Assembly (NCBI GenBank): GCA_018398765.1
Contig: JAHBMJ010000321.1
Location: forward strand, 62,001 to 126,000
Length of the DNA stretch: 64,000 nucleotides
DNA from: Chromera velia
Lineage: Eukaryota
Direction of reading: 5' to 3'
The notes under the pieces are model-generated. The model saw only the letters and a list, made by a program, of their open reading frames with translations. It was not told where the DNA came from and made no database searches. This document shows, piece after piece, positions 2,843-60,217 of the stretch. Made by a program: the position numbers and the translations under genes. Each line of letters opens with the position of its first letter. Within the stretch, counting starts at the first letter, position 1.

Positions 2843-3527
2843 CTATCGTGCAGTTACGGTACTTCTTTCTTCTAGTTTCTCCCGCTTTTGTCCCACCAAC
2901 CCACTACTGAGACCCCTTTCCCTTGCAATCATACTCTTCATGAAAAATTCTCCTGCCTTGTAAGAAGAGCGGATGAGGGGGCCCGAGGCCATGTACTTGA
3001 ACCCCATTGCCATCCCGACGTCTTCGTACTTCTTGAACTGCTCAGGCGTCACGTACTCAACCACCGCCAGGTGATGGTCTGTTGGCCTCAGGTACTGGCC
3101 TGCATGCACACAGACAGACAGACAGACAGACGCACACATGCTTGCTTCATCTCGGTGAATGAGGAGCGCGAGCGAAGGAGGGAATCTACAGTCGAAAGGA
3201 AGAAGAGGGCGCCAGGTAAGACGAACGGAAGAAAGAGAGGTTAGGAGAAAAAAAGGATGGCGGCAGAGAAGGATAAAAAAAGGAAAGGACAGAAAGGCAG
3301 CCCGCACACCATCTCACCAACACTCCCCCCACGCCCCTGATCGACCCACAGCCAGCCCCAGACGAACCAACCGACCGAGTGTGAGGACGTCGCAGTCGAT
3401 GCTTCGAAGGTCCTCCATACATCTGATCACCTCCTCCTCTGTCTCCCCCAGCCCCAGCATCAACGACGTTTTTGTATACACATCAGGATTGGCTTCCTTC
3501 GCATACGCAAGAACGTCCATCGACTGT

Positions 3528-3611
<84 letters not shown>

Positions 3612-3612
3612 G

Positions 3613-3649
<37 letters not shown>

Positions 3650-5459
3650 AAGGACGGGTAGACGACCTTCAACCATTGTTAGAACGAAAACGGAATGAAA
3701 CTCTGATCCCTCTCCCTGCCTCTGTGCTGGTCCCTCTTTTTCTTTTCAGTCGGAGGGAGAAGGGAAAAGGGAACTTCACCCTCTCTCCCTTTGCCATTCT
3801 CCCTCCCTCCCTCCCTCCCTCCACGTCTTCTTCCTGACAGACAGACTGACTGACTTGTAGTTGGCCCTTCTATCCCTCACGTGTCTCTGGAGTCTCTCCA
3901 CCGTCTCCACATTGTGGGCATACACGTCCAGCCCCGACCTGGACAGACGGCTGACGGCCTGCACAGATCCGTCGGTCCGATTGTTTGTGTCAAGAGAGGG
4001 AGGGAGGGAGGGAGACGGGAAGGAAGCGAGAAAGTGAATTAAAGAGATGATGGGAATTTTTTGAGAGAGGTCGAAGGGGAGGAGAACGGTCAGGGCAGGA
4101 TGATCCCGTCTGCTCTCTTCCTCTCTGTCTCTCTCACACACACAGGTATGTGCACGTTTGCATGAAGAGAGAAACCGACAAACAAAACGAGTTTTTTTTT
4201 TTTCTTTCCTTCTGTCTCCTGTCAAACAAGAAAACATACGGATCATAAAAAAAAACACAAACATTCTGGCAGCGCGGAAGAGGCCCCGAAAGAAACAGAC
4301 TTAAGAGCCTCTTGCGTCTTCTCCTCGTGATCGGTTGAAGTCACACGCTCCTCTCCACTTCCACCAGAAGACAAGAAAGAGAAAAGATGATACAATCCAT
4401 CCACAAAGAAAACAATCCATATGACAAACGATAAACGAGAAACAGACGTACAGGCACCGCACCGTCAGTCAATTCAGAGATCGAGAGGTGCTGCATGGAC
4501 GAGGCATTTGTGACACACTATATACGATTTTTTATTTTTCCTTTTCCTTTTTTTTTTGCTGCAAGCAGACAGAGACACAGACAGAAAAGGAAAGAGAAAG
4601 AGAGGACGCGTTCCTCTCTGTCGCTCTGTCTCTTTCTTTCCTTGCTTTTCTTTCCCTTCCTTGGCTGCCTCGTCGATGCATGGACTGACTGACTGACTGA
4701 CTGACTGACTGACTGACCGGCTTGTTTCCCTGAAAGTCCGAAACCAGGCACTCCACCAACACCTCGGGCTTGATGGCTTTCAGATACTCCACTGTCTTTG
4801 CGAAGTGGTCTGCTCCTCCGTCCTCCATGTCATCTCTGCAGGGACACAGAGAGAGAGGGATTTAATAGAAAGAAAGGAGACAAATGACAAACACACACAT
4901 GTCATTTCTTTCTGCGAATATCAGCAGATTTTGTCTTGGTGCGCCCCGCAGAAACAAATCAGCAGGATACGCAGAGAATAGAGAAATGCCCCGAATCAGA
5001 CATGATGCATAGAGACGTCCCAGGCCAGTACCCTCTCTGTTCTCCCCAAAAATGACTTTTGACGAAAGAGCATACACAACACTCACATTTTGCAATTACA
5101 ACCTATCCAAGCAGGTCACAGGGCAGAACATCCCCGTAAACCAGTGCGATTCTGCGGAACAGCCACGCTCATCCATTCAAAAGAGGAGAAGACGCTAACC
5201 GAGCTAACCGACCTGTCCACAGATGTCATGACGATGTAGTCCACCCCCCACCTAGCGATTTCGCATGCTGTGTTGAAGGGCTCCTCTGGGTCTGCAGGGG
5301 GGGGCTTGGAGTCTGTCTTGATCGCGCAGAACCTGCAGCCTCTGGTGCACGTGTCTCCCAAGAGCATGATCGTGGCAGTCCCGCCGTTCCAGCACTCCCC
5401 TATGTTCGGACACTGGGCCTCCTCACAGACCTGCAATCAATCAATCAATCAATCAATCA

Positions 5460-5491
<32 letters not shown>

Positions 5492-57178: not shown

Positions 57179-57222
<44 letters not shown>

Positions 57223-58257
57223 TCTCGCGACAAGCACAAGGGGTTCTGCAGGTGATCTAGACTCTGCGGAAACAGAACACCAACCCCCCCCCTATGCATG
57301 GTGGGTGGACAAAAACTTTCCGGTCTCGGACAAAAAGAGAATTCTGCATGGAGCCTAATTGATTGATCCACAAAGAAAGCCCAGAGTCAAAACCATTCCG
57401 ACCCCCCCCCCCACCAAGGAGGGTGACTCAAATCTCGAACGGACCTGCGCACTGATAAAAGGATTCTTCATTTTTTTCTCCACGGCCTCCATGGCTACTT
57501 CAGGAGATTCCCCCAAGTAAACAATTCTGTGCATCATGCGTGCGAAGAACTCCCCTCCATCTAGAGCCTCTCTGTTCCTGTGGGTGAACATCAAATCGCG
57601 TGCAGCCTTTGCGGCAGCGTCCTCATCGTCATAGGCAGCCGGAAGGGGGGCGCCTCGGAAGGCCATTGCGTTGGACACCCCCCCCAGCATCGCGTCTTTG
57701 TTCTGTGCGAGAGTCGAGATGTCCGTTGACTGCACTTGTTGGAGCGCGGCCTTCGTCTGGGTGTCAATCCACGCCCCCCACGTTCCGGGGGCAAATTTCT
57801 GCTGCCACCAGGGAAGGAGATTTTTGAGGTCGACTGATTGGTTCTTCTGCTTGTGTGTCTGTGATAGATACTCCAGCATGATTTCGTTGTACAAACCGTA
57901 GTCTGTGTTGTCTCCTTTCTTCTGCCCGGGGTGATAATTCCGCCTTCCCCACCCCACACCGTGAGTGGTGCCCCCCATCTGTTCCCCCGGTCCTAGGTAC
58001 TTCTCTATCGGCTTGCCCCCATACGCCTCTTTGATCGCCTTCGCATCGTACTCGTAGTGACTGCCCAGACAGAGGGCGTCCGCGACCAAGGCACCAAAGA
58101 ACGCTCCCTTCACTCTGGACACTCTGGAAGGTGTCTCCGCAGAGGAGACTTTCGTGAGGGCAGCAGAGCACAGAGAGAGAATGGAGACATGAAGAAAACG
58201 GGAACGTGGCAGTAAAACAGAGGCTTTCCTGAGGATCATTCGATTTGATCGCTGCAT
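55974..58257 (-). CDS. ADP-ribosylglycohydrolase (ARH/DraG/crystallin-J1) family protein with putative signal peptide and C-terminal HEEL; 3 exons
   Basis: Exons 58257-57445, 57068-56934, 56282-55974. Motifs RVKGAFFGALVADALCLGSHYEYD, GDNTDYG, FTH, ANAMVGGDNASRSVVIGAVLGAWHG; ends GHEEL*. The start ATG is uncertain (58257 or 58239). Confidence 0.85.
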
Positions 58258-58511
58258 TTTGTCGTCCGTGTCTGTTCTGTTAATTTGATTCTGTAAGACG
58301 ACCGGGGGCCTCTTATTAAGAACGTCCTGTCTCCTCGGTCGCAACACTTCCTGATGCTAGCTTGTCTGCTGGTCTCCAGAACGGCGAGTGAACTTGTGAG
58401 GAGGAGCTTTAGGCTTTACAGTTGACTTTCCTTCTGTCAAGGAGGAGCCTCCGAGGAGGGTCTGCGGGCAGACCACCAATCTCCAACTCACCAAACCTCA
58501 GTGATGGGCGC

Positions 58512-58617
58512 TCGCATGGTGCGCCTGCATGCATGAAGGCTGCAAACTTTTTGTCATGCAGCCCTTGCATGGAGATGGCCGGCCGACCGATCGAAATGTT
58601 CGCAACATGCATGCATT
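58512..58617. promoter_or_regulatory. Cluster of (T)GCATG(CA) motifs in the ARH/GT15 divergent intergenic region
   Basis: CGCATG, TGCATGCATG, CATGCA, TGCATG and CATGCATGCA fall within ~105 bp. TGCATGCA is a known ApiAP2-bound element in apicomplexans. Confidence 0.4.
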
Positions 58618-59095
58618 TCGGAACTTCGGGGTCTCATTCCCTTCGCAGAGTTCACTGCAAACTTCAGACTTACAGATATTAATACTCAAGACGAAGCAAT
58701 CCTCTGTGTGCATTGAGTGTGGGTGCAGTCAGCCTTTTTTTGTCGAGATTGGGAGGTGCGCAATTTCGGGATAGATCTGTCTTGCGGATCTTCTCAAGGA
58801 GGCGGGACCGAGCTAAGATTCATACCTGTCTGCTCCGTCCGAAGACCGAAAGTTTGCTCAGGAAAAAAAGTGCATCTTTTTCATCAGACGCGTTTGTTGC
58901 TCGGCATTCAGCTGACTGTTCGCCCTCTGACACGTGAGCGCAACGCAATACAACCCCGCAATCCTGAAGACAGATCTGCGGTATGCAGCTCCGCACTTGG
59001 AGAGCAGAATGGTTCACGCCTTCGCACTCGGCCGCATCTTGGAGCACGAAGAGGTCCAGAGACAACTTTTCAAGAAGCGCCTTTCGAGTCGAAAA

Positions 59096-60217
59096 ATGCC
59101 AGTGACCTCAGTGAGACCCCAACAAAAAGTTCGCACAACGGCGGTGGCAGGTGTGTTGTTCGTAGCTGTTTTGATTTCCATCGTTGTCTTTCTCCGATTC
59201 GCCCTGCTGCGGGGAGAGCCTACGCTAAGCACCGCTGCTCTTCCCATGCCTGTCATCTCCAGCACAAGGGGAGACACCCCCCCCACTCACCACGAATCCT
59301 CCCGCGTCACGCGGAGACGGCAAACTGAGTCCGTCTCCGTCTTTGCTGACGATGAGCCTGTCGATCTCTCTATCCCGCAACTCCCCTCAGCCTTCGTGCT
59401 CCTGACCCGTAAAAGCGAACTTCCAACAGCAGTGCAGGCCCTCGAATCCCTCGAGGCCTCCTTCAATGCCCAGACAGGGGCCCGTTACCCTCTAGAGATT
59501 TTCCACGACGATCTTCAAGAAGAAGACCAACAGCGAATCAGAGAAACCATGTGGAAGGCGAGGAACGCATCCTCTGCCAATGCACCTCCCCCCTCTGTAT
59601 CCTTCCACAGACTCGACTTCTCCTGGAGACCTGCACCCCCCCCTCCAGGCCAACCCCCTTACCCGGAGCGTCTCCCCGAATTCCCCGGAAAGTCCTCCTG
59701 GGGTTACAGGCACATGTGCAGATTCTTCGCATTCGAGATGCCCTCACACGCAGCTCTCCAGAAATACAGGTCAGTCAGAAAGCGGCCTAGAGCACTTGGG
59801 GTTGCATGAAGTGATGCTCACCTCCGCGATCGGACATGGAAATCTGAATGAACACCCTCCCCTCCCTCCACTGGGAAAATTTCTGCTTTTTCCCAGAAGT
59901 CATGAAAGATAGAAGAGAACTATAATGGGAGAGGAGGGCAGTGAATGCAAGGAGAACAAAGTCTGAAAATGGGGTACTGAAATGGCGTGATAAGTTTCCG
60001 GGCAAAGATCATAGAAATGATGTGAGGGAGTGAAGGAGAAGAAAGGCAGTGAAAAGAGGGGGCAGTTCAGGAAGGCAACAATGAAACGATTTCACATGAA
60101 CCCGTCAATGCTTTCAAACGGATTGGATCCCTCCATGCTACGGTTCACTGCAAGTGGAATCCGTTTCTGTCTCCTCTTTCTAACTCTGTTTTTCTCTCCT
60201 CCCTCTGTGTGTGTGTG

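What the first reader, a model, noticed from the sequence alone, without database searches (positions are those of the whole stretch)
2843..59775. Deviant 5' splice-site consensus GT-C-A-G-T across all intron-containing genes
Seen: in 52 manually reconstructed introns, intron position +3 is C in 36, T in 6, G in 6 and A in only 4. GTCAGT alone makes up 22 donors, and GTAAGT occurs once. Most junctions are anchored by conserved protein motifs in LipA, CPSF73, HDAC and the kinase. Established: eukaryotic U2-type donors are typically GTRAGT, pairing with the U1 5' end ACUUAC, and +3C normally weakens a site. Inference: this lineage may have a rewired donor-recognition system, e.g. a U1 snRNA with ACUGAC, or altered U6 ACAGA-box/U1C/Luc7 contacts.
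Basis: partly seen in the sequence, partly recalled or inferred. Interest (0 to 1): 0.85.

Follow-up and report, generated by a model that had tools for sequence, protein, structure and literature searches.

The report
Alga's introns start GTCAGT, not GTAAGT
Most introns in this stretch of the alga Chromera velia begin GTCAGT rather than the usual GTAAGT, a start that stalls splicing in fission yeasts, so this alga likely has a re-tuned splicing machine, most likely a U1 RNA changed to match.

Summary
The window is Chromera velia CCMP2878. Transcript-derived proteins fix all 14 HDAC junctions, and +3-blind alignment to foreign homologues recovers the donors. +3C is far above matched intronic background (33 of 46 vs 19 of 118). 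New here: both splice sites sit in register with four-base repeats. GUCAGU is also nearly absent from fission-yeast introns because +3C over-pairs with U6 and blocks step 2 (PMC4299874). U1 and U6 of this alga could not be obtained, so the mechanism is untested. A compensated U1 (ACUGAC) is my best guess (0.5). Precedents exist in Entamoeba and Mastigamoeba, but most lineages with odd donors keep a standard U1. Eight literature searches found no report of this consensus. Verdict: new variant of a known kind, in an intron-rich genome of about 118,000 introns.

The parts
2843..6358 (-). Lipoyl synthase LipA (Cvel_3285), 6 introns; donors at 6162 GTAAGT, 5795 GTCAGT, 5212 GTCGGT, 4717 GTCAGT, 3854 GTCAGT, 3375 GTCGGT
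   Evidence: Exact map of annotated protein P0003, one GT-AG placement per junction; 5 of 6 recovered blind with foreign homologues; Pfam
7037..11319 (+). Na+/H+ exchanger, 3 introns; donors 7943 GTCGGT, 9203 GTCAGG, 9764 GTTGGT
   Evidence: Stop-free spliced frame; PF00999; junctions rest on frame continuity only
22509..30977 (+). Protein kinase, 13 introns; donors 22719 and 23020 GTCAGC, 23763 GTCGGT, 24344, 24832, 25160, 25957, 26450, 27677, 28469, 29188 GTCAGT, 27061 GTGTGT, 29705 GTACAT (ambiguous)
   Evidence: Stop-free frame; 5 of 7 donors from the blind alignment agree, the other 2 were placed nearby and are also +3C
35212..42933 (-). CPSF73-like metallo-beta-lactamase, 13 introns; donors 42861 GTGAGT, 41943 GTAGGT, 41263, 40842, 40561, 38925, 37881, 37232 GTCAGT, 40136 GTTAGC, 39667 GTTGGT, 38393 GTGGGT, 36558 GTGCAT, 35991 GTCAGG
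   Evidence: First 8 from the +3-blind alignment; 4 more from a weak C-terminal alignment; stop-free frame; homologues
43993..51463 (+). Class I histone deacetylase (Cvel_3290), 14 introns; donors 44045 and 47588 GTGAGT, 44286, 45969, 49329, 50883 GTCAGT, 44929 GTCAGC, 45513 and 46950 GTTGGT, 46557 and 48740 GTCGGT, 47216 GTAGGT, 48277 GTTGGC, 50393 GTCTGT
   Evidence: Identical protein held by MMETSP, and an N-terminally extended copy (P0244) on a 1615-nt contig; 14 of 14 junctions have a single GT-AG placement
49328..49740 (+). About 103 copies of a GTCA repeat starting at the donor of HDAC intron 12; the transcript-derived protein uses the first GT
   Evidence: Tandem Repeats Finder; junction
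55974..58239 (-). ADP-ribosylglycohydrolase family gene, 2 introns; donors 57444 GTCCGT, 56933 GTCTAT
   Evidence: Stop-free frame; PF03747
59009..61001 (+). Glycosyltransferase family 15 gene, 1 intron; donor 59770 GTCAGT; 3' end not determined
   Evidence: Stop-free frame to 61001; PF01793

Best explanation
These are ordinary GT-AG introns whose donor consensus has shifted to G|GTCAGT, likely because the 5' end of this alga's U1 RNA changed from ACUUAC to ACUGAC so that it would pair with C at intron position +3. Shown: the consensus, its excess over background, and four-base repeats in register with both splice sites. Inferred: the shift is genome-wide; U1 nt 6 is G; U6 keeps its ACAGAGA box, and the extra G:C pair it would form at +3 is tolerated because +4 stays a purine and leaves a non-Watson-Crick position in that duplex; and slippage at GTnnGT proto-repeats copies and replaces donor units, which would let a very large intron set track a new U1.
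For: The +3 preference is for one base, C (36 of 52), while all other U1-facing positions stay canonical: -3C/A, -2A 25, -1G 39, +4A/G 46, +5G 49, +6T 45. A single change at U1 nt 6 gives the best fixed-register pairing. +3C persists in AG| donors (13 of 22), where +4 relaxes to G (9 of 22). The only other lineage I found with a +3 pyrimidine consensus, Entamoeba (GUUUGU), has a matching U1, and intron-rich Mastigamoeba shows the same kind of change at +4 (bioRxiv 2022.06.08.495308). With standard snRNAs GUCAGU is selected against: 3 of 5,702 and 1 of 5,350 fission-yeast introns (PMC4299874). GTCTGT, the version that blocks step 2 in budding yeast, is 1 of 52 here. All GTCA tracts of 3 or more units in the window start at a donor or lie in a donor-anchored run, on the sense strand.
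Against: U1 was not seen: a scan for ACTGAC-type U1 gave 42 chance hits, which is uninformative because this genome may not be in that collection. Giardia, Trichomonas, Saccharomycotina, Thecamonas and Mamiellales have odd donors and a standard U1. +3T (6) is no commoner than +3G (6), so the G-U wobble that a U1 G6 predicts is not visible. +5G is nearly invariant even in AG| donors (19 of 22), which would also fit compensation for a mismatch with a standard U1. A changed U1 alone does not explain how step 2 proceeds. The duplex-energy gain (-5.7 to -9.9 kcal/mol) is circular and is not evidence. Avoidance of GTCRG inside introns is weak (p 0.02-0.14 depending on trimming; full hexamer 4 sense vs 3 antisense).
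Confidence: 0.5

Rival explanations
1. U1 is standard and tolerates a mismatch at +3, through altered U1C/Luc7 or reduced reliance on U1. Donors are chosen mainly at transfer to U6, where +3C gains a Watson-Crick pair with G44, and changes in Prp8, Prp16 or related proteins let step 2 proceed.
For: +3 faces U6 G44, and A or G there pair only weakly (PMC11732430). +3C adds a G:C pair (PMC4299874). +5G 49 of 52 and +6T 45 of 52 are strict. All 13 donors lacking -1G have +4A and 11 of 13 have +3C, like the U6-dependent class. Most odd-donor lineages keep a standard U1. U1 was not detected in the alveolate Amoebophrya.
Against: That extra pair is harmful in fission yeasts. All the uncompensated precedents are +4 changes, not +3. 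The -1/+4 link could instead be a repeat effect, since -1 and +4 are identical more often than by chance (23 vs 16.3, p 0.004).
Confidence: 0.25
2. The U6 ACAGAGA box itself has changed at the base facing +3, alone or together with U1, so that +3C no longer over-stabilises the duplex.
For: It would remove the step-2 problem directly. The central A of the box is changed in Cyanidioschyzon merolae (PMC10581693).
Against: The box was invariant in 240 species and is described as perfectly conserved. No Chromera U6 sequence was seen.
Confidence: 0.1
3. No spliceosome change. The genome is poor in TA and prone to four-base slippage, so donors drift to GTCA units that a permissive spliceosome accepts.
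For: TA o/e is 0.33 in introns. G recurs at +1, +5, +9, +13, +17, +21 in 52, 49, 40, 25, 29, 28 donors, and T at -5, -9, -13, -17 in 42, 36, 37, 36 acceptors. Neighbouring units are alike more often than by chance.
Against: Matched intronic GTnRG sites have C in only 19 of 118, and donors without a self-repeat still have C in 22 of 36. GTCA tracts occur only at donors, while other four-base tracts lie everywhere. GTGAGT is freely available (10 copies in intron interiors) yet makes only 3 donors.
Confidence: 0.1
4. The window is unrepresentative, and the genome-wide consensus is ordinary.
For: Only 52 of about 118,000 introns, from one scaffold, were examined.
Against: C is the commonest +3 base in each of 7 unrelated genes on both strands; 95% interval 0.56-0.80. 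Intron length (median 420) matches the genome's median of 372.
Confidence: 0.05

Closest known systems
Entamoeba GUUUGU donors with U1 AACAAAC (Roy and Bowser, bioRxiv 10.1101/2022.06.08.495308)
   Same: Pyrimidine at +3 as the genome consensus; a compensated U1 is the model proposed here
   Different: Entamoeba is intron-poor with near-uniform donors and changes at +3 and +4. Chromera is intron-rich with varied donors and changes +3 only, to C. Its U1 is unseen.
Mastigamoeba balamuthi U1 ACGUAC (same preprint)
   Same: Fairly intron-rich lineage with a one-base U1 change matching a C in the donor
   Different: The change is at +4 (GUGCGC), not +3; 2.5 introns per gene vs 5.4 per intron-bearing gene in Chromera
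GUCAGU donor of telomerase RNA in S. cryophilus and S. octosporus (PMC4299874)
   Same: Identical hexamer; +3C faces the U6 G
   Different: There it is a rare site used to stop splicing after step 1. Here it is the commonest donor of mRNAs that are fully spliced.
+4 pyrimidine lineages (Saccharomycotina, Giardia, Trichomonas, Thecamonas, Mamiellales)
   Same: Lineage-wide departure from GURAGU
   Different: They change +4 with a standard U1 (linked to METTL16/SNRNP27K loss in yeasts). Chromera keeps +4 as a purine.
Yarrowia lipolytica GTGAGT (PMC2911113)
   Same: A dominant non-A base at +3
   Different: Still a purine. It was called perfectly complementary to U1, but later surveys found Saccharomycotina U1 invariant, so it is not a firm precedent for compensation.

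Membership tests
U2-type spliceosomal introns | GT...AG ends, removed from mRNA | tested here: met
   52 of 52 are GT-AG; 14 of 14 HDAC introns are absent from transcript-derived proteins
U2-type spliceosomal introns | Exon-end G, +4A/+5G/+6T donor core | tested here: met
   -1G 39, +4A 32, +5G 49, +6T 45 of 52
U2-type spliceosomal introns | Purine at +3 (typical, not absolute) | tested here: not met
   10 of 52 are purine
U2-type spliceosomal introns | Recognisable branch-point motif | tested here: inconclusive
   CTRAY in 5 of 52 acceptor regions, YTRAY in 12 of 52, no clear excess over mid-intron
U12-type introns | RTATCCTT donor (motif recalled) | tested here: not met
   0 of 52 donors
Donor/U1 co-evolved systems (Entamoeba, Mastigamoeba type) | Atypical lineage-wide donor consensus | tested here: met
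   Met within this window, 7 of 7 genes; genome-wide not tested
Donor/U1 co-evolved systems (Entamoeba, Mastigamoeba type) | U1 5' end changed to complement the donor | tested here: inconclusive
   No U1 in the window; 0 of 42 metagenome hits were U1; genome not held
Altered-U6 systems (C. merolae type) | Changed ACAGAGA box | not testable with these tools
   No Chromera U6 sequence obtainable; the one table that may hold it was too large to read
Introner-type mobile introns | Families of introns similar along their length | not tested
   No all-against-all intron comparison was run; by eye the introns share only ends and simple repeats

The most novel reading that the evidence does not exclude
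Chromera velia has re-coded donor recognition across about 118,000 introns: U1 reads ACUGAC, and the U6 box or the step-2 proteins are adapted so that a donor that stalls fungal spliceosomes is now the optimum, with four-base slippage at splice sites as the engine of the concerted change. This would show that snRNA and splice-site co-evolution does not require prior massive intron loss.
Probability: 0.35. Interest if true: 0.88.

Novelty: new variant of a known kind. Interest (0 to 1): 0.7.

Why it matters
The donor's +3 purine and the U1 and U6 sequences that read it are among the most conserved features of eukaryotic genes. The clearest known co-evolved case is intron-poor, and one model holds that introns must be lost before the machinery can move. 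An intron-rich, culturable alga, a close photosynthetic relative of apicomplexans, with a +3C consensus makes that model directly testable with public data. It also offers a natural spliceosome that completes splicing on a donor known to block step 2, which bears on how the U6/donor duplex is remodelled. Practically, gene predictors trained on GTR donors will misjudge this genome.

Tried and rejected
No whole genome is held and no RNA-seq reads were available, so there is no genome-wide logo and no split-read check. Rfam found no snRNA in the window (0 at gathering score; 14 sub-threshold miRNA matches at E<=1, which I read as chance hits on simple repeats). The U1-variant pattern scan of metagenome contigs returned 42 loci, none with an Rfam match; this neither supports nor refutes the U1 idea. 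A wobble argument at +3 (C>U>purine) was dropped because T equals G. Cryptic-site avoidance was inconclusive. Canonical in-frame rival donors (GTRRG within 30 nt) exist for 3 of 52 introns, all GTGGG-type or GTAGT, and 2 of those 3 real donors are fixed by homology, so mis-chosen donors are rejected as the cause. The blind aligner misplaced 2 of 12 HDAC and 2 of 7 kinase donors in poorly conserved stretches and added 3 unsupported introns in the CPSF73 tail; these were not used. The alveolate conserved-element study has U1 and U6 clusters, but its sequence table could not be read and the U1 row was not located. Yarrowia was rejected as a firm precedent. Earlier scan notes: none.
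Full report
Source. Single-exon searches returned 100%-identical proteins named Chromera velia CCMP2878: lipoyl synthase Cvel_3285 and histone deacetylase Cvel_3290. No whole genome is held and no RNA-seq reads were available, so everything below rests on this window, on protein databases and on papers.

Checking the observation. I rebuilt seven intron-bearing genes (families by Pfam, and homologues). They contain 52 GT-AG introns with no internal stop codons. Position +3 is C in 36, T in 6, G in 6 and A in 4; GTCAGT makes 22 donors and GTAAGT one. 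The rest of the donor is canonical: -2A 25, -1G 39, +4A 32 or G 14, +5G 49, +6T 45.

Are the junctions right? The HDAC protein is held identically by MMETSP, a transcriptome collection (established knowledge). A longer copy with an in-frame 5' leader sits on a 1,615-nt contig, too short for the 7.6-kb gene and so inferred to be a transcript. Mapped with no dinucleotide rule, each of the 14 junctions has exactly one GT-AG placement; +3 is C8 T3 G2 A1. I also wrote a spliced aligner that requires only GT/GC and AG and used profiles without Chromera sequences. It recovered 10 of its 12 HDAC donors, 5 of 5 LipA donors and 8 CPSF73 donors, and 5 of 7 kinase donors plus 4 CPSF73 tail donors from a weak alignment. 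The four misplaced HDAC and kinase donors lay in poorly conserved stretches and were also +3C. Tiers A and B together give C in 25 of 36. Sixteen donors rest on frame continuity or annotation, and three of these (27061, 29705, 36558) are doubtful.

Is it more than composition? C follows 30% of non-donor intronic GTs. Among GTnRG sites, 33 of 46 donors but 19 of 118 intron-interior controls have C (one donor-anchored array and 40 nt next to each donor left out), and 22 of 36 donors without a self-repeat have C. A at +3 is simply at background in a TA-poor genome, so the finding is a gain of C and a loss of purine enrichment. C leads in all seven genes.

A second feature. Both splice sites are in register with four-base repeats. 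G occurs at +1, +5, +9, +13, +17 and +21 in 52, 49, 40, 25, 29 and 28 donors, and T at -5, -9, -13 and -17 in 42, 36, 37 and 36 acceptors. Every GTCA tract of three or more units starts at a donor or lies in a donor-anchored run; one runs for about 103 units. 32 of 52 donors have a second GTnnG four bases downstream, yet in HDAC the first GT is the one seen in transcripts. How the first site wins is unexplained; decay of frameshifted products could hide use of the others. Acceptors are CAG in 51 of 52 and TGCAG in 36, and no branch-point consensus stood out.

Mechanism. Position +3 is read twice: by U1 nt 6 (established knowledge) and then opposite U6 G44 (PMC11732430, passages). In two fission yeasts GUCAGU is found in 3 of 5,702 and 1 of 5,350 introns, and the extra G:C pair with U6 stops splicing after step 1. 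In budding yeast GUCUGU but not GUCAGU blocks step 2 (PMC4299874, passages). So standard machinery disfavours this site, and its dominance here needs a cause. The simplest is one base in U1 (ACUGAC), as in Entamoeba and Mastigamoeba (bioRxiv 2022.06.08.495308; parts 1 and 4 of 9, passages and one section). The rarity of GTCTGT (1 of 52) fits a standard U6 whose duplex must keep one weak position. Against this, five other lineages with odd donors keep a standard U1, though all are +4 changes; +3T is not above +3G; and +5G is stricter than a perfectly matched U1 would need. I put the compensated U1 at 0.5, a standard U1 with U6/protein-led choice at 0.25, a changed U6 box at 0.1, drift by slippage alone at 0.1 and an unrepresentative window at 0.05. 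Slippage as the driver of concerted change is inference.

Attempts to see U1. There is none in the window. One metagenome scan for ACTGAC plus two recalled U1 loop motifs returned 42 loci, none with an Rfam match. This is uninformative, since the alga's genome may not be in that collection. A study of conserved elements in 30 alveolates including Chromera lists U1 and U6 clusters (PMC5028923; passages and part 1 of 77 of one table), but its sequence table was too large to read and may hold the answer.

Prior art. The genome paper's main text has no passage on splice-site consensus or snRNAs (PMC4501334, term search; 12 of 16 supplements searched; one read whole). Eight library searches found no report of Chromera donors. 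The library covers only openly licensed PubMed Central papers and bioRxiv, and pan-eukaryote surveys or figures I could not see (for example the unreadable supplement of PMC9250747) may show the logo. That paper's table gives 21,895 intron-bearing genes at 5.4 introns each, about 118,000 introns (passages). PMC7789003, PMC2911113, PMC5855946 and PMC10581693 were seen as passages only; one section of PMC11732430 was read. Earlier scan notes held nothing.

Verdict. The feature is real and well supported locally, apparently unreported, and a new variant of known donor shifts. It differs from them in position (+3), base (C) and scale (an intron-rich genome). The mechanism is untested but can be settled by one Infernal run on public data. 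Interest 0.7.

Noticed in passing
window, all 52 acceptors: CAG in 51 of 52, TGCAG in 36, never TAG; T recurs every four bases upstream (-5, -9, -13, -17), with varied repeat units (TGGA, TGAT, TGCC, TGTG) in register with the acceptor
   Followed up: partly
window 49328-49740: About 103 GTCA units offer dozens of near-identical donors, yet the transcript-derived protein uses the first; 32 of 52 donors have a rival GTnnG four bases downstream
   Followed up: partly
window 6162, 42861, 44045: First introns more often keep a purine at +3 (3 of 7 vs 7 of 45; p 0.12); a possible 5'-UTR donor GTGAGT lies near 58491 on the minus strand
   Followed up: partly
window 44045-45919: The first four HDAC introns appear to sit at the same codon positions and phases as human HDAC1 introns 1-4 (recalled, not checked); if so, ancient introns carry the deviant donors
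   Followed up: no
window 6160-6600 (-): The annotated LipA N-terminus looks doubtful; an acceptor-like site near 6278 suggests a missed upstream exon
   Followed up: no
window 19092-21689 (-): Intronless triose-phosphate-transporter-family frame (PF03151) with a long low-complexity tail, among intron-rich neighbours
   Followed up: partly
window 1-1300 and 52200-54200: Broken non-LTR reverse-transcriptase-like remnants, read by eye
   Followed up: no
window 8225-8803: 150-bp tandem repeat (about 4 copies) inside the first intron of the Na+/H+ exchanger, running into an assembly gap
   Followed up: no
window 33051-33427: Two 10-bp tandem arrays that are reverse complements of each other, forming a long imperfect palindrome, possibly a MITE
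   Followed up: no
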